A stretch of 53,925 bases of DNA. Origin: Deltaproteobacteria bacterium. GTDB lineage: Bacteria; Desulfobacterota; Desulfobacteria; Desulfobacterales; C00003060. This document shows, piece after piece, positions 7,460 through 45,621 of the stretch. Position 1 is the first letter of the stretch. Each line of letters begins with the position of its first letter. The DNA is taken from assembly GCA_030592345.1 (NCBI GenBank), contig JAUVJO010000001.1:1-53925 (forward strand), given 5' to 3'. The notes below the pieces were generated by a model. The model was not told the DNA's origin. It did not search any database and saw only the letters and a list, made by a program, of their open reading frames with translations. The translations under genes were made by a program, and so were the position numbers.

Positions 7460-9349
7460 ATGTGCGGAATCTGCGGAATATTTAACTTGAACGGCGAACC
7501 AGTATCTCCGGTGAACTTGCGGAAAATGACCGATGCCATCGCCCACCGCGGGCCAGATGGAGAGGGGTTCTACATCGATAGCTTCATCGGGCTGGGTCAT
7601 CGAAGGCTGGCCATCATTGACCTTTCTCCTGCTGGCCACCAGCCCATGCTTTCACCGGACGGTAATCATGCCTTGACCTACAATGGTGAAGTATACAACT
7701 TCCAAGAACTGCGCATGGAATTGGAAAGCCTGGGCCATCAGTTCCGCTCCCGGACCGATTCCGAGGTGGTGCTCCATGCTTACGCCCAGTGGGGAGCTAA
7801 TTGCTTAAACCGCTTCAACGGCATGTTCGCTTTTGCCGTGTGGGACAAGACCAGACAGGAGCTTTTCCTGGCCCGGGACCGCTACGGAATTAAACCGTTG
7901 TACTACACCTTTACAGGCAATTACTTCATTTTTGCTTCAGAGCAAAAAGCAATCCTCACCCATCCTGCTGTTCGTCGGGACATCGACCTGGAGGCTCTGC
8001 TTGAATACTTCACGTTCCAAAATATTTTCACTGACAAAACTCTGCTCAAAGGCATCAAACTTTTCCCTCCTGGCCACTACTCCAGACTCCCTCTTGGCTC
8101 TGCCCTTGTGCCTGACTCCTTCAGCCTTAAGCCTGTCCAATATTGGGACTTCGATTTCCGCGAACCCGAACATCCCGCCACTGAAGCCGAATATATAGAG
8201 GAACTCGACCGCCTTTTCCGTCAGGCAGTAAATCGTCAGCTTATAAGCGATGTGGAACTGGGCTCCTATCTAAGCGGTGGTATGGATTCGGGTTCAATCA
8301 CTGCCATTGCTGCCACCCAACTACCTTATATAAAAACCTTCACCTGTGGCTTTGATCTGCACTCGGCGTCGGGCCTGGAACTAGGCTTTGATGAGCGTCA
8401 GAAATCTGAGTTCATGTCCTATCTCTTCAAGACGGAGCACTACGAGATGGTGCTCAAGGCCGGGGATATGGAACGGGTTTTGCCCAAATTGGCCTGGCAT
8501 CTGGAAGAACCCCGGGTGGGTCAAAGTTATCCGAACTTCTACGCGGCACAATTGGCTTCCAAGTTTGTCAAGGTGATCTTGACCGGCTCAGGTGGCGACG
8601 AATTGTTTGCTGGCTATCCCTGGCGCTATTACCGTGCTATTGTTAATGATAGTTTTGAAGGCTACATTGACAAATATTACGCATTTTGGCAACGCCTGAT
8701 TCCTAACAGAACTATCCACAACGTGTTTCGGCCTGTGTGGAACGAAGTTGGACACGTTTGGACCCATGATATCTTCCGCGATGTTTTTCGGGAACAGGCA
8801 CACAATCTCGCGACGCCTCAAGACTATATAAATCATTCACTGTATTTTGAGGCAAAAACTTTCCTTCACGGCCTTCTCGTCGTTGATGATAAACTGAGTA
8901 TGGCCCACAGCCTGGAAACACGGGTGCCTTTTTTAGACAATGACCTTGTCGATTTTGCTATGCAGGTGCCTGTAACCCTGAAGCTACAGAACCTTAAAGA
9001 AGTCATCCGCATAAGCGAAAACGAGCCCGGCAAGGTCAAAAAGCATTTTGAAAAAACAAGAGACGGTAAATTAGTCCTGAGAAAAGTCATGGGACGCTAT
9101 GTGCCCGAAACCATTACCAGCGGTATCAAGCATGGCTTTTCCGCACCTGACGCGTCCTGGTTCAAAGGTGACAGCATTGAATATGTGCAGAAGATTATCT
9201 TTAAAGATAATGCTCATATTTACAACTACCTGGATCGAAAGGCGTTACAAGAACTGGTACAGGAACATCTCGATGGCGCGATTAACCGGCGATTGCTCAT
9301 CTGGTCAGTGCTGAATTTTGAATGGTGGCTGAGGAAGTATCTTGCTTAA
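7460..9349 (+). CDS. AsnB-family glutamine-dependent amidotransferase, paralogue 1 (629 aa, short class)
   Basis: MCGICGIF (Cys2 nucleophile), HRGPD, HRRLAIIDLSPAGHQPM, YNGEVYN, SDSEV and the PP-loop LSGGMDSGS are present. The start lies 2 nt after the DegT stop. Confidence 0.9.
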   Translation: MCGICGIFNLNGEPVSPVNLRKMTDAIAHRGPDGEGFYIDSFIGLGHRRLAIIDLSPAGHQPMLSPDGNHALTYNGEVYNFQELRMELESLGHQFRSRTDSEVVLHAYAQWGANCLNRFNGMFAFAVWDKTRQELFLARDRYGIKPLYYTFTGNYFIFASEQKAILTHPAVRRDIDLEALLEYFTFQNIFTDKTLLKGIKLFPPGHYSRLPLGSALVPDSFSLKPVQYWDFDFREPEHPATEAEYIEELDRLFRQAVNRQLISDVELGSYLSGGMDSGSITAIAATQLPYIKTFTCGFDLHSASGLELGFDERQKSEFMSYLFKTEHYEMVLKAGDMERVLPKLAWHLEEPRVGQSYPNFYAAQLASKFVKVILTGSGGDELFAGYPWRYYRAIVNDSFEGYIDKYYAFWQRLIPNRTIHNVFRPVWNEVGHVWTHDIFRDVFREQAHNLATPQDYINHSLYFEAKTFLHGLLVVDDKLSMAHSLETRVPFLDNDLVDFAMQVPVTLKLQNLKEVIRISENEPGKVKKHFEKTRDGKLVLRKVMGRYVPETITSGIKHGFSAPDASWFKGDSIEYVQKIIFKDNAHIYNYLDRKALQELVQEHLDGAINRRLLIWSVLNFEWWLRKYLA

Positions 9350-9393
9350 AGCTTAAGCCTATAACCTGTGCCCGTAACCATTAGGGGGCTATC

Positions 9394-10006: not shown

Positions 10007-10088
10007 AAGATAAATGAATACACATAGAGAACATACGCCTCAGATGGGGTGTTTATCTTAGACTATTTTGAAAGCCTGGACGGGGAAA

Positions 10089-11327: not shown

Positions 11328-11339
11328 AATGATTACGGA

Positions 11340-16615: not shown

Positions 16616-16633
16616 CAAAAAATGAACATCGGA

Positions 16634-18068: not shown

Positions 18069-18137
18069 ATATCGACTGGCCAGCCCAACCAAAAAAGAAT
18101 TTGGCGGTACAAGATCAACCAATTGAAATTAGGAAAA

Positions 18138-18926
18138 ATGCTGAGAAACATGTTCTATTCCATGGTCGAGAATCGCGAACTGGTCTGGGAAATGGCCATC
18201 CGCGATATCAAGCAATTGAACAAAGGGGCCTTTCTCGGTATGTTGTGGACTGTGCTGGGCCCATTGGTACAGGTTGCCGCATATGTTATCGTAGTTTCAT
18301 TTGTTTTTAAAAGCCGGCTAGGAGATAATTCAGGACCGTTCGATTACGGGGTTTATGTTCTTTCAGGCATGATTCCATGGCAGATCATGAATAAGTCGCT
18401 TATGGAAGCTCCCTCGTTAATTCGCAGTCGGATGGAACTTGTCAAACAGGTCATTTACCCCATTGAGACGCTCCCCATCACCAGCCTCATTGTCGGGTCA
18501 ATCGGATCTTTCGTCTCATTTCTGATTTTTTTTGTACTTTCTGCAATTTCCGGAAATCTGAATTGGAGCATCCTACTCTTGCCTGTCCCTTTCTTTTTTC
18601 TGGTGATCTTTCTAATCGGCACTGCGTGGTTTTTTTCTATTGCCGGAATATTGTTTAAGGATTTAAGAGAGGTCGTTTCTGTATTTCTCGGACTACTGGT
18701 TTATTTATCCCCTGTAATAGCCAGCGAAACGATGACTGGTGAAACGATATGGAAAATCATTTTGTGCAACCCTCTTGCCCACGTAGTGATCTGCTTCAGG
18801 GACATATACAATGCCACCTTTCATCCAGCAAGTTGGGGCCTGTTCGTAGGAATGGCTATAACCTCTCTTCTTCTCGGAGGATGGGTGATCACCAAAACCA
18901 AAATGATGATTAATGAACACATTTAG
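18138..18926 (+). CDS. wzm: ABC-2 type polysaccharide export permease
   Basis: The RELVWEMAIRDIK N-terminal motif is followed by about six hydrophobic segments. ATG 18138 has an AGGA upstream. The track start is TTG 18123. Confidence 0.85.
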   Translation: MLRNMFYSMVENRELVWEMAIRDIKQLNKGAFLGMLWTVLGPLVQVAAYVIVVSFVFKSRLGDNSGPFDYGVYVLSGMIPWQIMNKSLMEAPSLIRSRMELVKQVIYPIETLPITSLIVGSIGSFVSFLIFFVLSAISGNLNWSILLLPVPFFFLVIFLIGTAWFFSIAGILFKDLREVVSVFLGLLVYLSPVIASETMTGETIWKIILCNPLAHVVICFRDIYNATFHPASWGLFVGMAITSLLLGGWVITKTKMMINEHI

Positions 18927-18930
18927 GAAC

Positions 18931-19036
18931 TATAGGCTTTAAGATAAAGATTTTGGAAAGGCCAGAGGAAGGAAGGCGTACTCGTCGTACGTTGACGACC
19001 GATAACGCATCCAAAATCTTTATCTTAAAGCCTATA
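18931..19036 (+). repeat. nested-palindrome element, copy A1 (106 bp)
   Basis: Perfect 26-bp terminal inverted repeats: tataggctttaagataaagattttgg (18931-18956) and its reverse complement (19011-19036). The core contains aaggccagagg, the hairpin gcgtac-tcgtc-gtacgt, and cgaccgataacg. Confidence 0.9.
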
Positions 19037-19126
19037 ATCCACGAACGACAGCAAGTGGCACAAGCGAGAAATGTGATCTTCCTGCCCCTCTCGCCAGGTC
19101 GTTAAGTTATTGTAAGAGGCAATCGA

Positions 19127-20380
19127 ATGCCAGAAAACGCCATTGAGCTGCACAATGTCTCCAAGCGATTCAAATTATATCACAATTCCATCAGTGGTCC
19201 TGTTAAAGAATTGCTCTTTTTTTGGAAGAGTCATAATTATTACCAGGAATTTCTAGCCGTTAAGGGTGTGTCTCTCACTATAGAAAAAGGGGAGACTGTT
19301 GGAATCATTGGCCCCAACGGCGCTGGCAAAACTACTTTATTAAAGATGATAGCGGGGTTGCTCGCAGTCGACGAAGGTAAGGTCATCGTCAATGGTAAAA
19401 TTACAGCGTTACTTGCCTTAGGCATCGGTGTCCATCCTGAATTCACCGGCAGGGAAAATATCTATTATGGCGGGATGTTGATCGGAATGTCGAGGGAGGA
19501 GGTGCTACTAAAAACCCCGAATATTATTGAGTTTGCCGAGCTGGGAGATTTTATCGATCGCCCCTTTCGTACGTATTCATCCGGAATGAAGGCCCGACTG
19601 CTTTTTGCCATTTCCATGAGTATCGATCCTGACATATTAATCGTGGACGAAGCACTGGCTAGCGGAGATACATACTTTGTGAACAAATGTTCACAACGTA
19701 TTCGAGAAATCTGTAAAAGCGGAGCGACGATTATATTTGTTTCCCATAACTTGACACAAATTGAACAACTCTGCCAGAGAGCTTTCTTTATGGCAGAAGG
19801 ACAGATGTTAAACGACGGGCATCCGTCAAAGATCGTAACACAGTATCATCGCTGGGTTTTTGATAAGGACGCACAAGCACCACTCATTACAGAGCAGCCG
19901 GAACTAGAATCCATCAGCGGTACAAAAGACGTTATCATTACTGACATTAAACTGAAAAGCGCTAACGGCCGCGAAAGCACAGGTTTCTTCACAGGCGAAA
20001 ACATGTGTATGGAAATTTACTACAATGCAACCGCACATGCGACAAACGAGAAAATTAATCTATTTATTGGATTCAAACTCTGCAATAGTGGTCAGTATGT
20101 TGGAGAAATCCAAACAAGATACAACGTCGATAGTCTAATGTCACAAGCAAAGCAGGTAGTTTTGGATGTCTATCAAAAGGGCATGATAGAAATAACTTTT
20201 AATCCCTTGCTATTGCTCAATAATCATTACGCGTTGTGGATCATAATTGAAAGCCACGATGTCGTGCGCTATTGCGAATATACAAATGTTTCCCCCTTCT
20301 TCGTTTCCAGGAGAGATCGTTCCATTGCACGCGGTCCAATATTTTTGCAACCCGCTAAGATCGCAACCAAAAAGCAGTGA
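19127..20380 (+). CDS. wzt: polysaccharide export ABC transporter ATP-binding protein with C-terminal extension
   Basis: Walker A GPNGAGKTT, signature YSSGMKARL and Walker B ILIVDE are present. About 170 aa lie beyond the NBD, as in Wzt proteins carrying a glycan-terminus-binding domain. Confidence 0.9.
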   Translation: MPENAIELHNVSKRFKLYHNSISGPVKELLFFWKSHNYYQEFLAVKGVSLTIEKGETVGIIGPNGAGKTTLLKMIAGLLAVDEGKVIVNGKITALLALGIGVHPEFTGRENIYYGGMLIGMSREEVLLKTPNIIEFAELGDFIDRPFRTYSSGMKARLLFAISMSIDPDILIVDEALASGDTYFVNKCSQRIREICKSGATIIFVSHNLTQIEQLCQRAFFMAEGQMLNDGHPSKIVTQYHRWVFDKDAQAPLITEQPELESISGTKDVIITDIKLKSANGRESTGFFTGENMCMEIYYNATAHATNEKINLFIGFKLCNSGQYVGEIQTRYNVDSLMSQAKQVVLDVYQKGMIEITFNPLLLLNNHYALWIIIESHDVVRYCEYTNVSPFFVSRRDRSIARGPIFLQPAKIATKKQ

Positions 20381-22995: not shown

Positions 22996-22997
22996 TA

Positions 22998-23765: not shown

Positions 23766-23823
23766 CCTTATTATACCGAAGACATTATCTAAAGAACTGA
23801 CTCTTACATTACATAATTTGTCG

Positions 23824-31681: not shown

Positions 31682-33685
31682 ATGTGTGGAATAGCAGGTA
31701 TTATTGGAAGTCCGGTCAGCTTATCTCTTTTGCCTTGCATAAAAAAAATGACCGACGTCATCCGTCACAGGGGTCCGGACGACGAAGGATTTGTGTTCTT
31801 CAAGCCTGGGCAGGGTAGAATCTGGCTGTACGGCGGCGAAGACACCCCGGACAGTGTGTACAGGGCTGGTTTGGCATATACCCCGGAACGCCCTTTCTCG
31901 GGCCAAAAACATGAAAACGCGACGCTGGCCCTGGGGCATCGGCGTCTTTCGATTTTGGATCTTTCCCCTGCCGGTCATCAGCCCATGTGCACGCCTGACA
32001 GGCGCTACTGGATTGTTTACAATGGCGAAATTTATAATTATCTGGAGATTCGAGATGAACTGATACGCAAAGGGTATCGGTTCCGGTCCAGGAGCGACAC
32101 CGAAGTGTTGCTTGCAGCCTATGTCCACTGGGGGACCGGGGCCCTGAACCGGCTGGTGGGGATGTTTGCCTTTGCCATTTATGACCGGGATGAGGACTGG
32201 CTGTTTCTGGCCCGCGATTTCTTCGGGATCAAGCCTTTGTATTATACGGTTTGGCCCGGTGGCTTCGCCTTCGCCTCGGAGATCAAAGCCCTGCTCACCC
32301 TTCCCCACGTCAGCCGCAAGCTCAACCCTCAGAGAGCCTATGAATACCTGCGCTTTGGCCTTACTGACCATGGAGAGGATACACTATTTAAGGACATCCA
32401 GCAACTCCCAGTGGCTCATTATCTATGTGTGGGCCTTGAAGGAAAAGAAAGCCCCCAGCCTGTCCGTTACTGGGATATTGACCTGAGCAAAAAGGTAGAT
32501 CTTCCCTTTGGCGAAGCGGTGGCCAGAATGAAGAAACTTTTTCTGAAAAACGTAGAGTTGCATTTGCGGAGCGATGTTCCTGTTGGGGCAGCTCTTTCCG
32601 GTGGCATTGATTCTTCGTCCATCGTCATGGTAATGCGGCAACGACATGAACGTAGCCTGGATCTGCATACCTTTTCTTACATTGCTGAGGATTCAAGTGT
32701 AAACGAAGAGAAATGGGTCGACATTGTTGGCAAAGTAGCCAGGGCTTCCACTCACAAGATACGGGCTTCGCCCGATCAACTGCTTTCCGATCTGGATCAA
32801 CTTATCCACATTCAAGACGAACCGTTCGGGAGTACCAGCATTTATGCACAGTACTTGGTAATGCGCCTGGCTGCGGAGAACGGTATCAAGGTAATGTTAG
32901 ATGGCCAGGGAGCGGATGAAATTCTCGCTGGATATCTATTTTATTTTGGTGCCCGCATGGCTTCCCTTGTCAGGCATGGGAAAGTAATTAATGCAGCGCA
33001 TTCTCTCCTGAAAGCTTCGAAATATCCGGGTGTCGGATTAAGGAGCCTCCTTCTTCATTCAGGTGCTTGCCTGTTATCTGAAGCTTTAAGAAATTCAGCC
33101 AGGAGACTCTTTGGCCCCAGCCCGGTTCCCCTGTGGTTAAGCCAATCCTGGTTTTCCACACATGGGATCACATCTCCAAATTACTCAACGGCTTCACGAC
33201 GAGACGTGTTGAGGCAACATCTTTATAGATCCGTCCAAATAGGTCTGCCTTCCCTGCTGCGTTACGAAGACCGCAACTCCATGGCGCATTCCATTGAAAG
33301 TCGGGTGCCTTTCTTGACGCCTGAGTTAGTTCAATTCCTCTTTTCCTTGCCAGAAGAATACCTCATCTCCTCAAACGGAACCACAAAATCCTTATTCCGC
33401 GAAGCGATGCGGGGCATTGTCCCCGACTCCATTCTAAAACGCAGAGACAAAATCGGGTTTGCGACTCCTGAAGAAAAATGGATTCGCCTTCTGCAGCCTT
33501 GGGTGGATTCGCTTTTGAAAAACAACACAACAAGAGGCATCCCTGCATTAAATCTCCCCGGTCTTCATAAGACGTGGCAAAAAGCATTATTGGGCCAGAA
33601 AAAATTTGACTTCACCATGTGGCGGTGCATTAACTTCATCCGTTGGACCGCTCAATATGAAGTCTCACATAGCACATATCCTTAG
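31682..33685 (+). CDS. AsnB-family glutamine-dependent amidotransferase, paralogue 2 (667 aa, long class)
   Basis: MCGIAGII, HRGPDDEG, HRRLSILDLSPAGHQPM, YNGEIYNY, SDTEV, the PP-loop LSGGIDSSSIV and LRYEDRNSMAHSIESRVPFL are present. Confidence 0.9.
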   Translation: MCGIAGIIGSPVSLSLLPCIKKMTDVIRHRGPDDEGFVFFKPGQGRIWLYGGEDTPDSVYRAGLAYTPERPFSGQKHENATLALGHRRLSILDLSPAGHQPMCTPDRRYWIVYNGEIYNYLEIRDELIRKGYRFRSRSDTEVLLAAYVHWGTGALNRLVGMFAFAIYDRDEDWLFLARDFFGIKPLYYTVWPGGFAFASEIKALLTLPHVSRKLNPQRAYEYLRFGLTDHGEDTLFKDIQQLPVAHYLCVGLEGKESPQPVRYWDIDLSKKVDLPFGEAVARMKKLFLKNVELHLRSDVPVGAALSGGIDSSSIVMVMRQRHERSLDLHTFSYIAEDSSVNEEKWVDIVGKVARASTHKIRASPDQLLSDLDQLIHIQDEPFGSTSIYAQYLVMRLAAENGIKVMLDGQGADEILAGYLFYFGARMASLVRHGKVINAAHSLLKASKYPGVGLRSLLLHSGACLLSEALRNSARRLFGPSPVPLWLSQSWFSTHGITSPNYSTASRRDVLRQHLYRSVQIGLPSLLRYEDRNSMAHSIESRVPFLTPELVQFLFSLPEEYLISSNGTTKSLFREAMRGIVPDSILKRRDKIGFATPEEKWIRLLQPWVDSLLKNNTTRGIPALNLPGLHKTWQKALLGQKKFDFTMWRCINFIRWTAQYEVSHSTYP

Positions 33686-35450: not shown

Positions 35451-35566
35451 TCTTGTGTGGCATAGCCGGGATCATCGCTCTCAGAGGCATTTAATAGTTC
35501 AGCGGGCACTCTGGACCCGACACACACAGCTCTGCCTCCTCTATTCAACACATCTTGAGATTCTCG

Positions 35567-36862
35567 ATGAAAGCTAAAGCCAAACGTATCTTGGTTCTTT
35601 ATATACATAACGGGTCCATGGACACGATGCTAGTAGCTATCCTGTCTCACTTGCGGGCACTGGAAGCCAGTGACACAGCCCACGAGATTTTTTACTACAA
35701 CGCTATTGACGGCGCTCCTGCCTGGCTCAAGCGTTTCCGGTTTGACATCGTAGTCCTCCACACAACCTTGCTTTGTATGCGCTGGAGCCCTATATTTAAT
35801 TGGTGGAAACGCAAACTGAGGTGGATAAAAGATCTGGATTGCGTAACAATTGCTATGCCTCAGGATGAATACGACCATGCCGAAATCCTGGATGAGTGGC
35901 TGGCTGAGTGGAATGTGCCGATCGTCTTCAGCAACTTCGGGGCGGTCCAGCGCAAGTTACTTTACCCCATCCTGCACGATAAGGCAACCTTTTACCGTTG
36001 CCTTACGGGGTATATCGACCAACGGCTCGCCAAAGACTACGAAGACAAATTGCTCCCCCTCCAAGCCAGGCCTAACGACATTGTTTACCGGGCGAAGCAC
36101 TTGCCCTACCGATTCGGTAGCCACGGCCAGTTTAAACACAAGATTGGAGAAGACGTCTTGGAACGTGCCATCCAGCACGGTCTAAAGTGCGACATCTCGA
36201 CACGGCGCGAAGACACCATCTTTGGCAGCCGCTGGCTGGATTTTTTGGCCTCGGGGAAGGTGGTGATCGGCACTGAGAGCGGCTCCAGTAGCATCGACCG
36301 CCGTGGCGAAATCACAGGGCAGATTCAGCAGATGCTTCGGGACGACCCGACCCTGTCCTTCGAGGCAGTAAGTGCGCGGCTGCCGTATGGCTGGGACAAC
36401 TATCGGTTTTTTGCTATCAGCCCGCGCCACTTCGAGGCAGTAATCACAAAGACGGCTCAGGTGTTGGTCGAGGGAAAATATAACGGCGTGCTTGAACCGC
36501 ACACACATTACATCCCTCTTAAGGCCGATTTCTCCAATCTCGATGACGTACTCGACATGGTGCATGATCATGAGATGCTCCAACGAATGGTTGACCGAGC
36601 CTATAAGGATATTTGTCTCAACGGTGAATATACGTATCGTCGTCTCGCGGCAGATATCGAGCAAGCGTTGGCGACACGGCCAGATAGCGGCAAGGCTATC
36701 ATGCTTCTGTCCCCTTTCGACCGGCTGTTATGGAAATGGGGCCAAGTCTTGCAATATCTCGCGATCAGAAAAATGGTCTCCATGGTTTGTCTCTATCGAT
36801 TCACTAAGAGACTGTTAGGGGCATTTCGGATTCCTCATTACTCCACCAACAAAACTCAATAG
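35567..36862 (+). CDS. hypothetical protein, CgeB-like glycosyltransferase C-terminal pattern
   Basis: SGKVVIGTESGSS...RFFAISPRHFEAVITKTAQVLVEGKYNGVLEPHTHYIPLKADFSNLDDVL resembles CgeB/DUF3880-type GT1 proteins. The track start is TTG 35555. Confidence 0.45.
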   Translation: MKAKAKRILVLYIHNGSMDTMLVAILSHLRALEASDTAHEIFYYNAIDGAPAWLKRFRFDIVVLHTTLLCMRWSPIFNWWKRKLRWIKDLDCVTIAMPQDEYDHAEILDEWLAEWNVPIVFSNFGAVQRKLLYPILHDKATFYRCLTGYIDQRLAKDYEDKLLPLQARPNDIVYRAKHLPYRFGSHGQFKHKIGEDVLERAIQHGLKCDISTRREDTIFGSRWLDFLASGKVVIGTESGSSSIDRRGEITGQIQQMLRDDPTLSFEAVSARLPYGWDNYRFFAISPRHFEAVITKTAQVLVEGKYNGVLEPHTHYIPLKADFSNLDDVLDMVHDHEMLQRMVDRAYKDICLNGEYTYRRLAADIEQALATRPDSGKAIMLLSPFDRLLWKWGQVLQYLAIRKMVSMVCLYRFTKRLLGAFRIPHYSTNKTQ

Positions 36863-36993: not shown

Positions 36994-38913
36994 ATGTGCG
37001 GCATTTCAGGGATTATGTCGTCCGAGGTGATGAATCCGGACATCCTTCGTGAGTGGCTTCAGGGGATGAACTTCCTCCAGGCCCACCGTGGTCCTGACGG
37101 CGTAGGCATTTGGATTCACGAGTCTAGCCGTTTGGGCTTCGGTCATGTGCGCCTAAAAATTATCGACCTTGCAACGGGTGCGCAGCCCATGCGCTCTGAT
37201 GCAGGCTTGATGATCACCTATAATGGTGAAATATATAATTATCAAGAGCTTCGTAAGGAACTCGGGCAGGAAACCTTTCGCACTAACTCTGACACGGAAG
37301 TCATCCTACGGGCATACGAAAGGTGGGGAGAAGACTGCGTCGATCACCTGCGGGGCATGTTTGCCTTTGCCATTTGGGATGAAAAGAATAAAAAGCTCTT
37401 CTGCGCCAGGGACCGATTCGGGATTAAGCCATTCTACTACACTGAAAACGTCAACGGATTTTTCTTCGCCTCCGAAATCAAAGCCATTTTACCCTTTGTG
37501 GAAGCAATTGTTACGGATTACAATGGGCTTAAAGATTATCTGACGTTTCAGTATACCCTTGGAGAAAAAACTCTTTTTGACGGCGTTTCTCAACTCCTTC
37601 CGGCACATATTCTAACAATAATAAATGGAAACATTCGAATTCGAAAGTACTGGGAAGTCCAGTACAAGTTGGACTGGTTTCACACGAAGCTCTATTTTCA
37701 AGACCAAATTCGTAATCTGTTAATGGATTCCATACACTTACATTTACGAAGTGATGTACCTGTGGGTGCGTATCTTAGCGGGGGGCTTGACTCAAGCATT
37801 GTAGCATCTCTGGCCAGAAACAGTTATGTATGCGACTTTCGCACATTCCATGGAAAATTTTCAGTGAGTCCTCTGTACGATGAATCCAGATATGCCCACG
37901 CAGTAAGCGAGTTTTGCGATATGGAACTTCACGAACAGAATATTACTGCTGAGGATTTTGTTTCTAACATTCGAAACGTCATTTATCATCTGGACTACCC
38001 GGTAGGGGGTCCTGGCTCTTTTCCTCAGTATATGATCTCGAAACTGGCGAGCGGGCATTTGAAGGTGGTGCTTGGCGGCACAGGTGGGGACGAGATTTTT
38101 GGCGGGTACGTGAGGTATTTAATTTCTTACTTCGAGCAGTGCATCAAGGGAGCCATTGAAGGAACCATGCATAGCGGCAATTTTGTGGTCACCTACGAGT
38201 CGATTATCCCTAACTTGGCAGCCTTGAGAAATTATAAGCCCCTGCTGAAGGAATTCTGGAGGGAAGGGTTATTTGAGGATCGTGACAAGCGTTACTTCCG
38301 ACTTATCAACAGGGCAAATGGGCTGTCTGGAGAAATAAACTGGGATCGGCTCGAACCATATTCCGCCTTTGAAACTTTCAGGAGTATATTTTGGGGAGAC
38401 AACGTTGAAAAGAAGTCCTATTTCGACAGTATGACCCATTTCGATTTCAAAACGCTTCTTCCAGCACTACTGCAGGTTGAGGATCGCATGAGTATGGCCC
38501 ATGGGCTTGAGTCACGCGTTCCTCTGCTGGACCATCCCCTTGTGGAGATCGCAGCCACAATTCCTTCAAACATCAAATTTGAAAACGGGCAACTTAAACA
38601 CCTGATGAAGAGCACATTTCGTCAAAACTTGCCTGATGTAGTAAACCAGCGAGCCGACAAAATGGGATTCCCTGTACCTCTTTCGGAGTGGATGCAGGGG
38701 GAACTGAAAGACTTCGTACAGGACATCTTCCACGGTAGTAATGCTCGGAACCGCGAGTATCTTAACCCTGATTTTGACATCCAATCGCTGATTGCAACAG
38801 AGGGGAAATTCACACGGAAGGTTTGGGGGCTCTTATCCCTGGAGTTGTGGCAACAGGAATTTCATGATAAGGCTCAAATGTACACAAACTATCGGAAGGG
38901 AATAAACGTATGA
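36994..38913 (+). CDS. AsnB-family glutamine-dependent amidotransferase, paralogue 3 (639 aa, short class)
   Basis: MCGISGIM, HRGPD, VRLKIIDLATGAQPM, YNGEIYNY, SDTEV, the PP-loop LSGGLDSS and SMAHGLESRVPLLD are present. Confidence 0.9.
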   Translation: MCGISGIMSSEVMNPDILREWLQGMNFLQAHRGPDGVGIWIHESSRLGFGHVRLKIIDLATGAQPMRSDAGLMITYNGEIYNYQELRKELGQETFRTNSDTEVILRAYERWGEDCVDHLRGMFAFAIWDEKNKKLFCARDRFGIKPFYYTENVNGFFFASEIKAILPFVEAIVTDYNGLKDYLTFQYTLGEKTLFDGVSQLLPAHILTIINGNIRIRKYWEVQYKLDWFHTKLYFQDQIRNLLMDSIHLHLRSDVPVGAYLSGGLDSSIVASLARNSYVCDFRTFHGKFSVSPLYDESRYAHAVSEFCDMELHEQNITAEDFVSNIRNVIYHLDYPVGGPGSFPQYMISKLASGHLKVVLGGTGGDEIFGGYVRYLISYFEQCIKGAIEGTMHSGNFVVTYESIIPNLAALRNYKPLLKEFWREGLFEDRDKRYFRLINRANGLSGEINWDRLEPYSAFETFRSIFWGDNVEKKSYFDSMTHFDFKTLLPALLQVEDRMSMAHGLESRVPLLDHPLVEIAATIPSNIKFENGQLKHLMKSTFRQNLPDVVNQRADKMGFPVPLSEWMQGELKDFVQDIFHGSNARNREYLNPDFDIQSLIATEGKFTRKVWGLLSLELWQQEFHDKAQMYTNYRKGINV

Positions 38914-39854
38914 AAATTTTGATCACAGGCGGAGCAGGCTTTATTGGATCCCATCTTGCTGACAGACTTCTTCAGCGTGGAGATGAGGTTCTGGTGGTTG
39001 ATAATTATTCGACTGGTCGAAAAGATAATTTGTCACCCCATCCAAAACTGAAGGTTGTCGAGGGGACCATTGCTGATAGCAAGTTGATTTATCGGCTTTT
39101 CGAAGACTTTGGACCCGATTACGTTGTGCACGCTGCAGCCTCTTACAAGGATCCGGGCAACTGGGAGGAAGACGCCCGCACAAATGCTCTTGGGGGGGCT
39201 ATTGTAACACAGGCGTCTTTGAAGTGTGGGGCAAAACGGTTGATCTACTTTCAGACGTCCCTGTGCTATGGCGTCAAACCTTTGGAGCAACCAATTAGCC
39301 TTGATCATCCCATAAGACCTGGTGACAGCAGTTATGCCATAAGCAAAACAGCCGCCGAACAGTATATCGCCCTCAGTGGCATCGATTTTATTTCTTTTCG
39401 CCTTGCCAATGCTTACGGTCCCCGCAATCTGAGCGGCCCGCTGCCCACATTCTATCACCGCCTGACGAATGATCTCAAATGTTTTGTCATGGACACCCGG
39501 CGCGACTTCATCTATGTGCAAGACCTGATTGATATAGTCATGATGGCCTTGGACGGTGAGGGAGAGAGTGGATACTATCATGTATCTTCCGGAAGAGACT
39601 TCGCCATCAAGGAGCTTTTTGATAAGACCGTTGAAGCCCTAGGGGTTACGCTCGATGAAGAGGTCAAGGTTCGTGAACGCAACCCGGACGATGCCTATAC
39701 AATATTGCTGGATCCCTCAAAGACGACCCGGGACTTTGGATGGAGCCCAAGGACGCAACTGTCTGATGGGATTAAGTTAGGTATTGAATGGTACAGGGCC
39801 CATGGGATCAGTCAAACGTATACACATTTGAAGGACATTGGGGATAAAAAATGA
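38910..39854 (+). CDS. NAD-dependent epimerase/dehydratase (extended SDR)
   Basis: [21 protein letters not shown] and YAISK (YxxxK) are present. ATGA overlap with the AsnB-like gene. Confidence 0.85.
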   Translation: [314 protein letters not shown]

Positions 39855-40897
39855 ACCGTGATTGGAGCGAGGCAAGAGTGCTCATAGTAGGAGGAGCAGG
39901 ATTTGTTGGAAGCAATTTGACGAGAAGACTTCTGGATACTCAAGTCAAAGAAGTCCTTATTATCGACAATCTGCTGTCTTCGGAACAGGAAAATATTCCG
40001 GAAAGCGACAGAGTGGTTTTCTTGGAGGGGTCGATTGCAGACGACAGAGTGCTGAAAAAGGTCAATGATGATTTTGATTACTTCTTCCACTTGGCCACCT
40101 ATCATGGCAACCAGAGTTCCATACACGATCCTTTAGCAGACCATGAAAACAACACTTTGACCACTCTTAAGCTGTGCGAGCGGATAAGAGCTTTCAAAAA
40201 AACCAAGAAGGTAGTCTACTCTTCGGCAGGATGCACCATGGCAGAAAAAACTTATGCCACTGCTCATGCTACAACTGAAGACGCTCCAGTATCTCTCTAT
40301 CTGGATAGCCCTTATCAGATTTCTAAGATCATCGGTGAGTTTTACTCGAACTACTATTACAAGCACTATGATCTACCCGTGGTCAAGGCACGCTTCCAAA
40401 ATGTTTATGGCCCTGGCGAGATTTTGGGTGCAGGAAAATGGCGAGGTACGCCAGCAACGGTTTGGCGCAACGTTACGCCAACATTCATTTACCGTGCTAT
40501 CAAGCAAATGCCGCTGATTGTAGAAAATGGTGGAATCGCTACCCGCGATTTTATCTTCGTGGACGATGTTGTGCGAGGATTAATGCTGTGTGCTATATCA
40601 GGTGCGCCGGGTGAGGTCTATAATATAGCAAGTGGTGCTGAAGTCTCCATTTTGGAATTAGCTACACTCATCAACAAGATGACTGATAACGCAGTGCCCA
40701 TCAATCTAGGGCCAAAAAGGCAATGGGATCATTCTGGCAAACGTTTCGGCAGCACAGAAAAATCGAAAAAGGAGATTGGATTTGAGGCGCTAATGAGTCT
40801 TCAAAAAGGGCTAGAAATGACAATCGACTGGACGCGGAACAATTTGTCTCTAATTGAAAGCTGTATCAGGAAACATGCGTCCCATATGCCTCATTAA
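39851..40897 (+). CDS. NAD-dependent epimerase/dehydratase (extended SDR)
   Basis: RVLIVGGAGFVGSNLTRRLL and YQISK (YxxxK) are present. ATGA overlap with the upstream SDR gene. Confidence 0.85.
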   Translation: MNRDWSEARVLIVGGAGFVGSNLTRRLLDTQVKEVLIIDNLLSSEQENIPESDRVVFLEGSIADDRVLKKVNDDFDYFFHLATYHGNQSSIHDPLADHENNTLTTLKLCERIRAFKKTKKVVYSSAGCTMAEKTYATAHATTEDAPVSLYLDSPYQISKIIGEFYSNYYYKHYDLPVVKARFQNVYGPGEILGAGKWRGTPATVWRNVTPTFIYRAIKQMPLIVENGGIATRDFIFVDDVVRGLMLCAISGAPGEVYNIASGAEVSILELATLINKMTDNAVPINLGPKRQWDHSGKRFGSTEKSKKEIGFEALMSLQKGLEMTIDWTRNNLSLIESCIRKHASHMPH

Positions 40898-40919
40898 GTT
40901 GTGGAAATCCCGAAACCCT

Positions 40920-43532: not shown

Positions 43533-43566
43533 GAGTCAGTTTCCGGAAGTTGTATTCTCAGTGGGT

Positions 43567-45621
43567 TTATGACACTCCCCCGTATTGCCCCAACCGCAAC
43601 CAGGTTTCCAGATTGACCCACCGCCAACGCCGCCGTGCCTCATCTACAAACGGCACATCCAATCCCAATTTTGATTGCACCACATTAGCATCCAGATACT
43701 TCCCCACCGCCGATTCACTCGTAAAGCGATCCCTCATTACAGAACCAACCTTAGAGAGCAAATCCTGCTCTGGCATCTCAAAACCAACTTTGTCCTTTCG
43801 CCAGGCAATCGCAGGTGGTAAGACGTCTGCCATTGCTTTACGCAACACCCACTTTGTCCATCCGGCATGGATACGCCAGGGTGCAGCAGAACCAAAGGTA
43901 TAATCCACCAGGCGATAGTCAAGAAAAGGAACGCGCGTCTCAATCGAAAAAGCCATGGAGTTGCGGTCTTCATATCGCAGGAGGTATGGCAGGCTACTAT
44001 CAAAGATAGCGTGGTAGGCAAAATCACTCATGCTTCGATCTGTTAATACAATGGCCCGATGATAAAAACGATCTTTGTATGCATGGACAAAGGAAGGGTT
44101 TAAGCAAGTTTGAGTTGTCTCTCCTTTTCGTACTGAAAAAGCGCGTTGAAGCGGAGCAAATATCCTTAGCGGTTGTCTAAAGGTACGTTGAAGTGGAATC
44201 AGTATTTTCGATGGTAATTGCAACATGATTGACAAGATTGATAAGCACAACATCGACCACGCAGAAAGCTCGGTGGCAATCCTGATATCTTTTGCATCCA
44301 ACAAAGCCTGGCGGAATTGTCCTTCTCTGATTTTCTCGGCAAGGTAGACCCCAAAAGGACGATAGCCGGCTAATATCTCGTCTGCCCCTTGTCCGTCTAG
44401 CAACACAGTCACACCACGTTCACTGGCCAGGTGCATAACACACCATTGGGCAAAGATGCTGACTCCTGGGAATGGTTCATCCTGGTGCCAGATCAGACGC
44501 TCAAGGTCCGTCAACAACCGTTCGGCTGTTGGAAACGTAAAACTGGCATGTACACCGGTATGCGCCGCCATGACCTCGATATGCTGGCGCTCATTGAACG
44601 TGCCATCGGCGTGATAGACAGCACTGAAGGTCTCTTGATGCTTGCCAGGGCGCGCTGCCGAGATTCCGTGCTCATGCTGCATCATCCGGTTAACAACCCC
44701 GACGATTGAAGAGGAATCAAGCCCGCCCGACAGGCAGGTGCCAATAGGAACGTCGGCACGTAAGCGAAGGCGTACAACGTCAGTGAAGAGTGCGCCAAAC
44801 TCTTCTACAACCCGGGTTGGCTCTAAATTACCTGACTCTCCACTTGGCTGAATATCCCAATACCGTTGGAGGGTTCGGCCATGGTTGGTTACGGTCAGAT
44901 AATGACTTGCAGGCATCCCTTTTACCCCGCTATAAAAAGTGGTGCCCATCTGCGGGCTTGGCAAAACGCCCATTGCCAGATAGTCAAACACAACTTCGTC
45001 GTTGGGCTGAAATGGGATACCGTGCGGGCCGACCAACGCTTTTATCTCAGAGGCAAAACAGAATCGCGAATTACCATCAACGTAGTAGAGAGGTTTGATG
45101 CCAAAACGATCCCTTGCCAGAAACAGTTTCCTGGCTTCTACTTGCCAAATGGCAAATGCCCACATCCCATTCAGATGGGACAAGCAGTCCTGGCCCCACT
45201 TCTGATATGCAGCCAGGATAACCTCTGTGTCAGTGCCGGTATGGAATCTAAAACCGTAGCCGGTTAATTCGGCGCGTAATTCCAGGTAGTTATAAACTTC
45301 GCCATTGTGGATAATCCAGAAACGCCTATCGGTGCTAGCCATAGGCTGATGACCTGCAGTGGAAAGGTCCAGAATCGCCAAGCGACGAAAGCCCAGCACA
45401 AAATCAAAGTGTTCACCAAAGAATTGGCCGATGTTGGGTAAACCAAGTTGCGGATTGGTGTCCTTACCGCCACAATGCACCGTCTTCCCGCTCTGCGTAT
45501 TGATAAGCAGATAGCCTTCATCGTCTGGGCCACGATGACGCAAAATCGTGGTCGCCGCTTGGACGGCCGAAAGGTCGACCGGTTTGCCATCAAGATGCCA
45601 GATGCCGTAGATACCACACAT
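43567..45621 (-). CDS. AsnB-family glutamine-dependent amidotransferase, paralogue 5 (684 aa, long class)
   Basis: MCGIYGIW, HRGPDDEG, FRRLAILDLSTAGHQPM, HNGEVYNY, TDTEV, the PP-loop LSGGLDSSSIV and LRYEDRNSMAFSIETRVPFLD are present. The start shares one nt with the upstream stop (TAATG). Confidence 0.9.
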   Translation of the reverse strand: MCGIYGIWHLDGKPVDLSAVQAATTILRHRGPDDEGYLLINTQSGKTVHCGGKDTNPQLGLPNIGQFFGEHFDFVLGFRRLAILDLSTAGHQPMASTDRRFWIIHNGEVYNYLELRAELTGYGFRFHTGTDTEVILAAYQKWGQDCLSHLNGMWAFAIWQVEARKLFLARDRFGIKPLYYVDGNSRFCFASEIKALVGPHGIPFQPNDEVVFDYLAMGVLPSPQMGTTFYSGVKGMPASHYLTVTNHGRTLQRYWDIQPSGESGNLEPTRVVEEFGALFTDVVRLRLRADVPIGTCLSGGLDSSSIVGVVNRMMQHEHGISAARPGKHQETFSAVYHADGTFNERQHIEVMAAHTGVHASFTFPTAERLLTDLERLIWHQDEPFPGVSIFAQWCVMHLASERGVTVLLDGQGADEILAGYRPFGVYLAEKIREGQFRQALLDAKDIRIATELSAWSMLCLSILSIMLQLPSKILIPLQRTFRQPLRIFAPLQRAFSVRKGETTQTCLNPSFVHAYKDRFYHRAIVLTDRSMSDFAYHAIFDSSLPYLLRYEDRNSMAFSIETRVPFLDYRLVDYTFGSAAPWRIHAGWTKWVLRKAMADVLPPAIAWRKDKVGFEMPEQDLLSKVGSVMRDRFTSESAVGKYLDANVVQSKLGLDVPFVDEARRRWRWVNLETWLRLGQYGGVS

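What the first reader, a model, noticed from the sequence alone, without database searches (positions are those of the whole stretch)
7460..45621. Five intact AsnB-family amidotransferases in one glycan locus, falling into two sequence classes
All five ORFs (7460, 31682, 36994 on +; 41508, 43567 on -) keep the Cys2 nucleophile (MCGI...). They also keep HRGPD, the RLxIxDL arginine, NGE(I/V)YN, (S/T)D(S/T)EV and an SGGxDS PP-loop, so none looks decayed. By eye they split into a short class (629/639 aa, sharing K(T/L)(F/L)L..LL.V(D/E)D(K/R)(L/M)SMAH(S/G)LE(T/S)RVP) and a long class (667-684 aa, sharing LRSDVP(V/I)G..LSGG(I/L)DSSSIV and LRYEDR(N/S)SMA(H/F)S). Single AsnB-like genes are known in O-antigen and EPS loci. 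Examples are WbpS-type uronamide formation and exosortase-associated amidotransferases, whose substrates are mostly unproven. Five copies in about 38 kb, most placed next to a glycosyltransferase, implies several distinct amidation steps or a different chemistry. I saw no uronic-acid-forming dehydrogenase (Ugd/WecC/WbpO type) in the window, so the acceptor carboxylate is not explained locally.
Basis: partly seen in the sequence, partly recalled or inferred. Interest (0 to 1): 0.75.

Follow-up and report, generated by a model that had tools for sequence, protein, structure and literature searches.

The report
Five sugar amidotransferases, Bordetella-like glycan locus
The five asparagine-synthetase-like genes are real and intact, but they sit in a mosaic surface-polysaccharide locus of the kind known from the Bordetella O-antigen, which itself carries three such genes, so they most likely convert sugar acids into sugar amides; this is an unusually dense example of a known theme, not a new system.

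Summary
All five ORFs are full-length class-II glutaminase plus PP-loop synthetase proteins with every glutaminase residue kept.

The two-class split is only half right. AsnB2, AsnB4 and AsnB5 form one clade (38-47% identity, invariant LDGQG(G/A)DE). AsnB1 and AsnB3 are separate lineages, 34% identical to each other.

The missing carboxylate is largely explained.
- The two SDR genes fused to AsnB3 are orthologues of Bordetella WbmF (about 70% identity to PDB 2pzj) and WbmH/WbmG. These enzymes act on UDP-2,3-diacetamido-2,3-dideoxy-hexuronic acids.
- The operon AsnB3-WbmH-WbmF recurs across phyla. In three loci it lies next to a complete WbpA/B/D/E/I pathway.
- AsnB1 belongs to a second mobile cassette: a 4-epimerase-like SDR, a C4 aminotransferase and the AsnB. 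On an Agrobacterium plasmid this cassette directly follows WbpA-B-D-E. That predicts a triamino-hexuronamide like the Bordetella O-antigen cap.
- The Bordetella wbm locus uses Wzm/Wzt export, holds three amidotransferase genes, and has its precursor genes in a separate locus.

The Glu348 equivalent of E. coli AsnB is replaced in all five, so none is a true asparagine synthetase.

Four copies in 14 kb is the extreme of 80 sampled loci. Verdict: new members of a known kind, with modest interest.

The parts
7460..9349 (+). AsnB1, a glutamine-dependent amidotransferase of the S/T/A-type lineage. It is the last gene of the cassette SDR338-DegT-AsnB1.
   Evidence: Pfam and NCBIfam. It is 66% identical to the Agrobacterium plasmid AsnB and 62% to the Lawsonia plasmid AsnB. 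The cassette recurs in L015, L044, L040 and L091.
4361..5377 (+). SDR338, an SDR related to UDP-HexNAc(A)/GlcA 4-epimerases. Proposed role: C4 oxidation.
   Evidence: Its nearest PDB relatives that I recognise by name are the 4-epimerases WbgU, WbpP and MoeE5 (functions from my own knowledge); the very top hits are unnamed epimerase/dehydratases. Orthologues scoring 351-529 bits lie directly upstream of DegT-AsnB1 in four other loci.
6231..7457 (+). DegT_a, a C4-type sugar aminotransferase. Its stop lies 2 bp before the AsnB1 start. The start coordinate 6231 is inferred from the MQIPV methionine in the ORF translation.
   Evidence: The best NCBIfam matches are PseC, ArnB and LegC. Synteny is shown. 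The ORF reads in frame from an upstream PIN-like segment.
31682..33685 (+). AsnB2, an amidotransferase of the Q-type long clade, flanked by GT4 genes at 30185-31345 and 34215-35450.
   Evidence: The nearest relative found is 53% identical (L057).
35555..36862 (+). unk435, a soluble protein with no family match that is co-conserved with the AsnB3 operon. It may be a glycosyltransferase.
   Evidence: No Pfam or NCBIfam hit. Homologues lie next to the operon in L096, L098, L099 and L100. A profile of the family gives a weak hit to POGLUT1, E = 6e-4.
36994..38913 (+). AsnB3, an amidotransferase translationally coupled to the WbmH-like and WbmF-like SDRs. Proposed role: UDP-diNAc-hexuronamide synthase.
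   Evidence: 4-bp overlaps with the next two genes. Orthologues are 63-80% identical across many phyla. The three-gene operon recurs in L009, L098, L099 and L100, and nearby in L096.
38910..39854 (+). SDR314, an orthologue of Bordetella WbmH/WbmG.
   Evidence: PDB 2q1w, E = 1e-107; 2pzk, E = 2e-85.
39851..40897 (+). SDR348, an orthologue of Bordetella WbmF (a proposed 3,5-epimerase acting on UDP-ManNAc3NAcA).
   Evidence: PDB 2pzj, 495 bits, about 70% identity over the full length. The H-G-N and A-G-C active-site motifs are kept (motif definitions from PMC12820599).
41508..43532 (-). AsnB4, an amidotransferase of the Q-type long clade.
   Evidence: Orthologues are 72% (L005) and 56% (L009) identical. 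The AF2 model has pLDDT 86 and a two-domain AsnB fold, with TM 0.79-0.80 to TsnB9 and AsnB.
43567..45621 (-). AsnB5, an amidotransferase of the Q-type long clade. Its start overlaps the stop of the GT4-like gene at 45621-46799.
   Evidence: Its nearest relative found is L013 (55%), closer than AsnB4 (47%), so the tandem pair is not a recent duplication.
45621..46799 (-). GT4-like gene that recurs next to Q-type AsnB genes.
   Evidence: Weak Pfam Glycos_transf_1 hit. Homologues lie beside Q-type AsnB genes in L015, L039, L055, L036 and L084, and probably L014.
47060..50168 (-). DUF354 protein, an AglJ-like GT2, and a WecB/WbpI-type UDP-HexNAc 2-epimerase. This set travels with AsnB3/AsnB4 homologues.
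   Evidence: The same set is present in L009. The epimerase is 56% identical to the WbpI-like gene inside the L096 wbp operon.
18123..20380 (+). Wzm/Wzt pair 1. The Wzt has a C-terminal carbohydrate-binding domain.
   Evidence: Pfam ABC2_membrane, ABC_tran and Wzt_C.
51681..53809 (+). Wzm/Wzt pair 2.
   Evidence: Pfam hits.

Best explanation
The window is a mosaic locus for one or more surface polysaccharides exported by ABC transporters. It is built like the Bordetella wbm O-antigen locus. The five AsnB-family proteins are working glutamine-dependent, ATP-dependent amidotransferases.

Proposed mechanism, inferred from the family: the C-terminal PP-loop domain adenylates a sugar carboxylate; ammonia released from glutamine by the N-terminal Cys nucleophile then displaces AMP to give a primary amide.

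Proposed assignments, inferred from gene context:
- AsnB3, with the WbmH-like and WbmF-like SDRs and a WbpI-type 2-epimerase, makes the uronamide form of a UDP-2,3-diacetamido-2,3-dideoxy-hexuronic acid (L-GalNAc3NAcAN-like).
- AsnB1, with a 4-epimerase-like SDR and a C4 aminotransferase, makes a 4-amino (triamino) hexuronamide comparable to the Bordetella chain-terminating cap.
- AsnB2, AsnB4 and AsnB5, each paired with GT4-type genes, amidate further acidic residues. Their acceptors are not identified.

The uronic acid precursor pathway (WbpA/B/E/D) must lie outside this 54-kb contig, as the wlb genes lie outside wbm in Bordetella. The high copy number reflects the assembly of several independently mobile cassettes, not local gene duplication.
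For: Shown directly:
- Domains, glutaminase residues and PP-loop are intact in all five.
- The AsnB4 model is confident and has the AsnB/TsnB9 fold.
- SDR348 is about 70% identical to WbmF, and SDR314 matches WbmH/G at E = 1e-107 and 2e-85.
- AsnB3, SDR314 and SDR348 overlap by 4 bp each. The same three-gene operon occurs in L009, L098, L099 and L100, and nearby in L096.
- Loci holding an AsnB3 orthologue (L095 Calothrix, L096/97 Jacksonbacteria, L099) carry a UDP-sugar dehydrogenase, GFO/IDH/MocA oxidoreductase, hexapeptide acyltransferase and DegT; L096/97 and L099 also carry a 2-epimerase next to them.
- The Agrobacterium plasmid has WbpA-WbpB-WbpD-WbpE-SDR338-DegT-AsnB1-formyltransferase as one contiguous run.

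From the literature:
- The Bordetella O-antigen is poly-L-GalNAc3NAcA that is partly amidated. It is capped by a 2,3,4-triamino-galacturonamide and exported by Wzm/Wzt. Its locus encodes three candidate amidotransferases, wbmC, wbmI and wbmZ (PMC2615507).
- The precursor comes from the wlb locus (PMC2279256).
- Deleting the AsnB homologue PGN_1234 in P. gingivalis abolishes the uronamide on a diamino-glucuronic acid; that paper also reports that the homologue WbqG was shown to be required for uronamide formation (PMC7468200).

Mosaic origin:
- Each paralogue is closer to genes in other phyla than to its neighbours in the window.
- Per-gene GC content ranges from 0.37 to 0.53.
- Toxin-antitoxin genes and gene remnants lie at cassette junctions.
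Against: - No activity has been measured for any member of these three lineages.
- The three Bordetella amidotransferases have never been assigned individually, and I could not obtain their sequences to test orthology.
- WbpA/B/D/E are absent from the window. The precursor supply is therefore assumed.
- For the Q-type clade, a UDP-sugar 6-dehydrogenase lies within 10 kb in only 8 of 42 full-length loci. A uronic acid acceptor is therefore weakly supported for AsnB2, AsnB4 and AsnB5.
- Whether amidation acts on the nucleotide sugar, the lipid-linked intermediate or the polymer is unknown.
Confidence: 0.65

Rival explanations
1. Some or all of the five, most plausibly the Q-type AsnB2, AsnB4 and AsnB5, act on an acceptor other than a uronic acid C6 carboxylate. 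Candidates are the carboxyl of an amino-acid, pyruvyl or lactyl substituent, or a lipid-linked or polymeric intermediate handled together with the adjacent GT4-like protein.
For: Only 8 of 42 full-length Q-type loci have a UDP-sugar 6-dehydrogenase within 10 kb. GT4 is by far the commonest immediate neighbour, 29 of 121 neighbours against 2 for dehydrogenases. The AsnB5 start overlaps the stop of a GT4-like gene whose homologues recur beside Q-type AsnB genes. The window also encodes an ATP-grasp amino-acid ligase and an aldolase-like protein that could introduce other carboxylates.
Against: Dehydrogenase genes are often encoded away from the glycan locus, as in Bordetella. In L009 and L005 the AsnB4 orthologues travel with the same WecB/GT2 set (plus DUF354 in L009) that accompanies the uronic-acid-type AsnB3 operon. 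No member has been shown to use another acceptor.
Confidence: 0.2
2. The enzymes form acetamidino (amidine) groups on N-acetyl sugars. They would adenylate the amide carbonyl instead of a carboxylate, as has been suggested for the AsnB homologue in the Tannerella O-glycan cluster.
For: The synthetase domain is a PP-loop ATP pyrophosphatase, the same superfamily (from my own knowledge) as the N-acetyl-sugar amidotransferases that make acetamidino sugars. The Tannerella paper proposes this role for its AsnB (PMC6120980). Before the PDB search, the set of amidotransferase, two SDRs and a 2-epimerase looked like fnlABC plus wbuXYZ.
Against: The SDRs proved to be WbmF and WbmH/G orthologues, which belong to uronic acid chemistry, not FnlA/B. 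The Agrobacterium locus carries an AsnB1 orthologue and, separately, a complete set of N-acetyl sugar amidotransferase, HisH and HisF2. The amidine function there is already covered. Genetic evidence for AsnB homologues points to uronamide formation.
Confidence: 0.06
3. They are housekeeping asparagine synthetases, or decaying duplicates with no role in the glycan.
For: All pass the generic model TIGR01536, 'asparagine synthase (glutamine-hydrolyzing)'. Public annotations use that name.
Against: All fail the AsnB equivalog NF006949, scoring 242-296 bits against a cutoff of 499. The residue at the Glu348 position of E. coli AsnB is Ser, Thr or Gln. The genes are translationally coupled to sugar-modifying genes. 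Orthologues are 63-80% identical across phyla in the same operon, which argues for purifying selection. There are no frameshifts or internal stops.
Confidence: 0.03
4. They are peptide-modifying enzymes of the lasso-peptide or macrolactam cyclase branch, or peptidoglycan mDAP amidotransferases.
For: The long proteins score 297-373 bits on the lasso cyclase model NF033535. From my own knowledge, AsnB homologues of Gram-positive bacteria of about 630-650 aa amidate mDAP.
Against: These scores are below the cutoff of 525. From my own knowledge, lasso cyclases lack the glutaminase nucleophile, which all five keep. I recognised no precursor peptide, leader protease or murein genes in the window. 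Every gene with a family assignment is a sugar-nucleotide, glycosyltransferase, export, regulatory or toxin-antitoxin gene.
Confidence: 0.02

Closest known systems
Bordetella bronchiseptica / B. parapertussis wbm O-antigen locus (wbmF, wbmG, wbmH; amidotransferases wbmC, wbmI, wbmZ; wzm/wzt)
   Same: The window has orthologues of WbmF (about 70% identity) and WbmH/G directly beside an AsnB-family gene. It has several AsnB-family genes in one locus and Wzm/Wzt export. The uronic acid precursor pathway is encoded elsewhere. The predicted chemistry, a diacetamido-uronamide plus a 4-amino uronamide, matches the Bordetella repeat unit and cap.
   Different: The window has five amidotransferases, not three, and two transporter pairs. 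It has extra methyltransferases, a sulfotransferase, an ATP-grasp ligase and an aldolase-like gene. The host is an uncultured bacterium whose nearest named relatives are Chloroflexota, Anaerolineales and Zixibacteria. Orthology of the AsnB genes themselves to WbmC, WbmI and WbmZ was not tested. No gene was identified as a WbmE-type deamidase.
WbpS / WbqG / PGN_1234 uronamide-forming amidotransferases (P. aeruginosa O6, E. coli O121, P. gingivalis)
   Same: They have the same two-domain AsnB architecture. They sit in glycan loci beside Wbp-type or UDP-HexNAcA genes. Genetic evidence for PGN_1234 and WbqG shows uronic acid to uronamide conversion. AsnB1 is the window protein closest to the TIGR03108 reference (35% identity, and TIGR03108 is its top NCBIfam hit).
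   Different: Those proteins are reported as best matches to TIGR03108. All five window proteins score far below that model's cutoff (332-461 bits against 817).
XrtA/PEP-CTERM system amidotransferase (TIGR03108)
   Same: AsnB-family enzyme embedded among GT4 genes in an exopolysaccharide locus.
   Different: No exosortase or PEP-CTERM genes were identified in the window. Scores are below the cutoff. The residue at the Glu348 position is Asp in the Vibrio reference but Ser, Thr or Gln here.
E. coli asparagine synthetase B (PDB 1ct9) and TsnB9 hydroxyamidotransferase (PDB 7ylz)
   Same: Same fold (TM 0.79-0.80 to the AsnB4 model), same glutaminase residues and same PP-loop.
   Different: Identity is 26-30% in the trimmed alignment. 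The residue at the Glu348 position is replaced, and MAFFT does not align the Arg of the TTIR segment to a residue in any of the five. There is an extra C-terminal helical region of about 100 residues. The long class also has a structured 35-55 residue insertion in the glutaminase domain.

Membership tests
AsnB-type class-II (Ntn) glutamine amidotransferase / PP-loop synthetase superfamily | N-terminal Cys nucleophile with Arg49, Asn74, Glu76 and Asp98; SGGxDS PP-loop; two-domain fold | tested here: met
   Pfam hits for both domains in all five. All these residues are kept. The AsnB4 model has pLDDT 86 and TM 0.79-0.80 to 7ylz and 1ct9.
Bona fide asparagine synthetase B | Passes the equivalog model NF006949 and keeps the catalytic Glu348 | tested here: not met
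   Scores are 242-296 bits against a cutoff of 499. The Glu348 position holds Ser (AsnB1), Thr (AsnB3) or Gln (AsnB2, AsnB4, AsnB5).
XrtA/PEP-CTERM amidotransferase (TIGR03108) | Score above the curated cutoff and a neighbouring exosortase system | tested here: not met
   Scores are 332-461 bits against 816.9. No exosortase family appeared among the Pfam hits for the window ORFs.
N-acetylglutaminylglutamine amidotransferase (TIGR03104) | Score above the cutoff and an adjacent ngg synthetase gene | tested here: not met
   Scores are 289-396 bits against 570. No ngg gene was found. The reference locus is shown.
Lasso-peptide isopeptide cyclase (NF033535) | Score above the cutoff; no glutaminase nucleophile; precursor and protease genes nearby | tested here: not met
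   Scores are 266-373 bits against 525. Cys2 is kept in all five. No lasso genes were recognised.
WbpS/WbqG-type uronamide synthase | Genomic coupling to a UDP-HexNAc(3NAc)A pathway | tested here: met
   Met for AsnB1 and AsnB3 only, through their orthologues. L091 has WbpA-B-D-E directly upstream of the cassette. L095, L096 and L099 have the Wbp genes next to the AsnB3 orthologue. Not shown for AsnB2, AsnB4 or AsnB5.
WbpS/WbqG-type uronamide synthase | Demonstrated conversion of uronic acid to uronamide, and sequence orthology to WbpS, WbqG or PGN_1234 | not testable with these tools
Genetic evidence for the references comes from PMC7468200.
Bordetella wbm-type O-antigen locus | WbmF and WbmG/H SDR orthologues | tested here: met
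   2pzj at 495 bits (about 70% identity, A-G-C and H-G-N motifs kept); 2q1w at 363 bits; 2pzk at 290 bits.
Bordetella wbm-type O-antigen locus | Several glutamine-dependent amidotransferases together with Wzm/Wzt export | tested here: met
   Five AsnB-family genes and two Wzm/Wzt pairs whose Wzt proteins carry Wzt_C. Bordetella has three plus wzm/wzt.
Bordetella wbm-type O-antigen locus | Supply of UDP-ManNAc3NAcA by a Wlb/Wbp pathway | tested here: inconclusive
   Only the WbpI/WlbD-type 2-epimerase is in the window, 56% identical to the epimerase in the L096 wbp operon. WbpA, B and D are absent from this contig, and only a weak WbpE-like match to the second DegT was seen. The rest of the genome is not available.
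Bordetella wbm-type O-antigen locus | Product is a poly-diacetamido-uronic acid/uronamide with a triamino-uronamide cap | not testable with these tools
   This needs glycan NMR or mass spectrometry.

The most novel reading that the evidence does not exclude
The Q-type clade (invariant LDGQG(G/A)DE; AsnB2, AsnB4 and AsnB5 here) is very large. To my knowledge no member has been characterised. Most members sit beside GT4-type glycosyltransferases, and few have a uronic acid pathway nearby. The clade could be a distinct, still unassigned glycan-modifying activity, for example amidation of a non-uronic carboxylate, or of a lipid-linked intermediate in partnership with the adjacent GT4-like protein. 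With three diverged copies in one locus, this window would be a convenient system in which to test that.
Probability: 0.15. Interest if true: 0.6.

Novelty: new member of a known kind. Interest (0 to 1): 0.3.

Why it matters
The analysis turns an apparent oddity into a testable pathway map. Uronamide sugars are said to be uncommon in bacteria (PMC2615507). However, the AsnB3-WbmH-WbmF operon and the SDR-DegT-AsnB1 cassette are highly conserved, at roughly 50-80% identity, across Chloroflexota, Zixibacteria, cyanobacteria, candidate phyla radiation bacteria, Desulfobacterota, Ignavibacteria, Acidobacteria and Alphaproteobacteria. This suggests that diamino and triamino uronamide glycans of the Bordetella type are widespread in environmental bacteria.

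The conserved operons also offer soluble, orthologous candidates for assigning the Bordetella amidotransferases wbmC, wbmI and wbmZ, which were still unassigned in the 2009 report. The value is incremental: it bears on annotation and glycobiology and does not reveal a new kind of system.

Tried and rejected
1. I first read SDR314, SDR348 and WecB as a 6-deoxy-hexosamine (FnlABC-like) pathway, which would have left AsnB3 without a carboxylate and pointed to amidine chemistry. I rejected this after PDB searches identified them as WbmH/G and WbmF orthologues.
2. I tried to reach the Bordetella wbm locus by searching with the WbmF-like protein, so as to compare WbmC, WbmI and WbmZ with the five. 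Bordetella was not among the 120 hits listed, all of which were about 68-77% identical.
The host taxon is inferred only from named relatives.
4. A single-sequence AlphaFold model of unk435 was unusable (pLDDT 39), so I ran no fold search on it. The profile-profile comparison with GT4 was not significant.
5. The tRNA and Rfam scans of the window found nothing.
6. The idea that AsnB4 and AsnB5 are a recent tandem duplication was rejected. They are 47% identical, and each has a closer relative elsewhere: 72% for AsnB4 (L005) and 55% for AsnB5 (L013).
7. The loss of the Glu348 equivalent was considered as a sign of decay and rejected. Gln at that position is invariant in the 12-sequence long-class alignment. 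It is also present in the annotated NAGGN amidotransferase.

Full report
**Observation**

The five ORFs exist exactly as described: 629, 667, 639, 674 and 684 aa. Each has a full-length class-II glutaminase domain and a full-length Asn_synthase domain. The alignment shows MCGI, HRGPD, RLxIxDL, NGE(I/V)YN, (S/T)D(S/T)EV and SGGxDS in all five. Against E. coli AsnB (fetched, aligned), Cys1, Arg49, Asn74, Glu76, Asp98 and the PP-loop are all kept.

An AlphaFold model of AsnB4, built from a 12-sequence alignment, is confident (pLDDT 86, pTM 0.88). It superposes on TsnB9 and E. coli AsnB with target-normalised TM-scores of 0.79-0.80. The roughly 47-residue insertion in the glutaminase domain of the long proteins is modelled with high confidence, with strands and a short helix, so it is a folded addition.

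**Classification**

Only the generic model TIGR01536 is passed. All five fail the curated models for AsnB proper, the XrtA/PEP-CTERM amidotransferase, the N-acetylglutaminylglutamine amidotransferase and the lasso cyclase.

- AsnB2, AsnB4 and AsnB5 are 38-47% identical to each other. They belong to a very large clade marked by an invariant LDGQG(G/A)DE motif.
- AsnB1 and AsnB3 are 34% identical to each other, no closer than either is to the long proteins. In a neighbour-joining tree of 107 sequences they fall in two separate lineages.
- The glutaminase insertion is patchy even inside the Q-type clade, so protein length is not a good classifier.
- AsnB4 and AsnB5 are not a recent tandem duplication. 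Their nearest relatives found are in other organisms, at 72% and 55%, against 47% to each other.

**Synthetase site**

The residue at the position of E. coli AsnB Glu348, in the motif S-G-E-G-S-D-E, is replaced in all five. It is Ser in AsnB1, Thr in AsnB3 and Gln in AsnB2, AsnB4 and AsnB5. From my own knowledge of the AsnB literature, this glutamate is needed to form beta-aspartyl-AMP.

This is not decay. Gln is invariant across the 12-sequence long-class alignment. It also occurs in the annotated S. meliloti N-acetylglutaminylglutamine amidotransferase. The Vibrio XrtA amidotransferase has Asp at that position. The pattern is retained ATP-binding and glutaminase machinery with altered acceptor-side residues. 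That is what one expects of amidotransferases whose acceptor is not aspartate.

**Locus content**

The window contains:
- Gmd;
- four further SDRs;
- two DegT aminotransferases;
- a C-methyltransferase-like protein and four other methyltransferases;
- a sulfotransferase;
- an aldolase-like protein and an ATP-grasp amino-acid ligase;
- about eight glycosyltransferases;
- a WecB-type 2-epimerase and a DUF354 protein;
- two Wzm/Wzt pairs whose Wzt proteins carry the carbohydrate-binding Wzt_C domain.

**Key result 1: the AsnB3 operon**

AsnB3, SDR314 and SDR348 overlap by 4 bp each.
- SDR348 matches Bordetella WbmF (PDB 2pzj) at 495 bits, about 70% identity over the whole length. It keeps the WbmF-specific H-G-N and A-G-C active-site motifs (motif definitions in PMC12820599).
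- SDR314 matches WbmH at E = 1e-107 and WbmG at E = 2e-85.
- In Bordetella these enzymes are proposed to convert UDP-D-ManNAc3NAcA to UDP-L-GalNAc3NAcA. The precursor is made by the separate wlb locus (PMC2279256).

AsnB3 has orthologues at 63-80% identity in Zixibacteria, Desulfobacterales, Chloroflexi, Jacksonbacteria, Calothrix, Peptococcaceae and Chitinophagales. The operon AsnB3-WbmH-WbmF recurs in L009, L098, L099 and L100, and with a small gap in L096.

In L095 (Calothrix), L096/97 and L099 a Wbp set lies next to the AsnB3 orthologue: UDP-sugar dehydrogenase, GFO/IDH/MocA oxidoreductase, hexapeptide acyltransferase and DegT. L096/97 and L099 also have the 2-epimerase. The window's own 2-epimerase is 56% identical to the one inside the L096 wbp operon.

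**Key result 2: the AsnB1 cassette**

The cassette SDR338, DegT_a and AsnB1 recurs in the same order in a Sericytochromatia genome, an Ignavibacteria genome, a Vicinamibacterales genome and an Agrobacterium plasmid.
- Among the nearest solved relatives of SDR338 are WbgU, WbpP and MoeE5, which I know as UDP-HexNAc(A)/GlcA 4-epimerases.
- The best family matches of DegT_a are C4 aminotransferases.
- On the Agrobacterium plasmid the run is WbpA-WbpB-WbpD-WbpE-SDR338-DegT-AsnB1-formyltransferase.

That run predicts a 2,3,4-triamino-2,3,4-trideoxy-hexuronamide with an N-formyl group. The Bordetella O-chain is capped by a derivative of exactly that sugar type (PMC2615507). Wzt proteins with a Wzt_C domain recognise chain-terminating residues, which I state from my own knowledge of ABC-transporter-dependent O-antigen export.

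**Precedent for several copies**

The 24-gene Bordetella wbm locus uses Wzm/Wzt export. It contains three glutamine-dependent amidotransferase genes, wbmC, wbmI and wbmZ. All three are candidates for uronamide formation and none is individually assigned (PMC2615507). That glycan carries uronamides in its repeat unit, its linker and its cap. Genetic evidence that an AsnB homologue makes the uronamide of a diamino-glucuronic acid exists for P. gingivalis PGN_1234, and that paper reports the same requirement for WbqG (PMC7468200).

**How unusual is five?**

In 80 genome loci retrieved with the long-class profile, 65 hold one AsnB-family gene, 14 hold two and one holds three. Among the 42 loci of at least 18 kb, 8 hold two or more. 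The syntenic relatives L009 and L005 hold two and one.

The window has four copies in 13.9 kb and five in 38 kb, so it is at the extreme of this sample. The arrangement is not conserved in relatives.

The density is best explained by a mosaic origin.
- Each paralogue has closer relatives in other phyla than within the window.
- Per-gene GC content ranges from 0.37 to 0.53.
- A VapC-like PIN ORF lies between SDR338 and DegT_a, two genes that are contiguous in other loci.
- A nucleotidyltransferase toxin-antitoxin remnant follows the WbmF-like gene.
- Gene fragments lie at 9425-10006 and 51490-51717.

**What stays open**

For the Q-type clade, the commonest immediate neighbour is a GT4 glycosyltransferase, 29 of 121 neighbours, against 2 for UDP-sugar dehydrogenases. 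A dehydrogenase lies within 10 kb in only 8 of 42 full-length loci. The AsnB4 orthologues in L009 and L005 do travel with the WecB/GT2 set (plus DUF354 in L009) that accompanies the AsnB3 operon. The acceptors of AsnB2, AsnB4 and AsnB5 therefore remain inferred.

**Verdict**

The interpretation 'several distinct amidation steps' is supported by context and by precedent. The 'unexplained carboxylate' is explained for two of the five genes. The system is a dense, mosaic member of a known kind, not a new one.

Noticed in passing
window 35555-36862 (+); homologues at L096:15478-16809, L098:7512-8828, L099:8638-9963 and 13926-15215, and L100:14014-15279 with two further matches: A soluble protein family of about 435 aa has no Pfam or NCBIfam match but is co-conserved, often in several copies, with the AsnB3-WbmH-WbmF operon. 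A profile of the family gives only a weak hit to protein O-glucosyltransferase 1 (GT90), E = 6e-4. It may be an undescribed glycosyltransferase for diacetamido-uronic acid residues.
   Followed up: partly
window 5446-5733 and 5739 to about 6230 (+): A 95-aa ORF and a VapC-like PIN segment lie between SDR338 and DegT_a, two genes that are contiguous in other loci. The PIN reading frame has no stop codon and runs in frame into DegT_a, giving the 572-aa ORF. Its Pfam PIN hit is weak (E = 3e-4).
   Followed up: partly
window 40854-41511 (+): A nucleotidyltransferase (Polbeta/MNT-type) gene and a 68-aa ORF that could be the remnant of its toxin-antitoxin partner (not tested) lie between the WbmF-like gene and AsnB4. 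A complete MNT/HepT pair interrupts the wbp operon of L099 in a similar way.
   Followed up: no
window 9425-10006 (+): This ORF matches only the C-terminal part (about 40%) of a class I/II aminotransferase, so it looks like a gene remnant. The Lawsonia plasmid cluster that shares an AsnB1 orthologue has a full-length class I/II aminotransferase beside an ATP-grasp gene.
   Followed up: no
window 51490-51717 (+): A 75-aa ORF upstream of and overlapping the Wzm2 start contains the stretch VIKVENLSKRY, which looks like the N-terminus of a Wzt-type ABC ATPase. It may be a remnant of a rearranged transporter gene.
   Followed up: no
window 10068-18068 (+): A run of a C-methyltransferase-like gene, a second DegT, a deacetylase-like gene, a 745-aa 4-hydroxy-2-oxovalerate-aldolase-like protein (its last 375 aa or so gave no Pfam hit), an ATP-grasp L-amino-acid-ligase-like gene and a methyltransferase. 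This suggests an elaborate N-acyl or branched decoration of an amino sugar. Several of these families also occur on Lawsonia intracellularis plasmid 2 (L092).
   Followed up: partly
window 18123-20380 and 51681-53809: There are two separate Wzm/Wzt pairs, both with Wzt_C domains, and a sulfotransferase at 20442-21404. The contig may therefore encode two polysaccharides, not one. It ends 116 bp after Wzt2.
   Followed up: no
window 47060-49074 (-); L009:6511-8528: A DUF354 protein directly beside an AglJ-like GT2 is conserved with the Chloroflexi genome L009. In L074 a DUF354 gene lies directly upstream of an AsnB3-like gene. DUF354 may belong to the same pathway.
   Followed up: partly
whole window, per gene: GC content varies from 0.37 (GT2 at 28099-29010) and 0.375 (23818-25110) to 0.53 (AsnB4, WecB), against a window mean of 0.466. 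This fits assembly from horizontally acquired cassettes.
   Followed up: partly
L084 (Bacteroidetes MAG, 20.8 kb) and L095 (Calothrix sp. 336/3): L084 holds three AsnB-family genes of three different lineages (AsnB1-like, Q-type and XrtA-like) among GT4-like genes. The Calothrix locus holds an AsnB3 orthologue, a second AsnB gene, the Wbp genes, Wzm/Wzt and a glucuronyl C5-epimerase-like protein. Both are further examples of multi-copy loci.
   Followed up: partly
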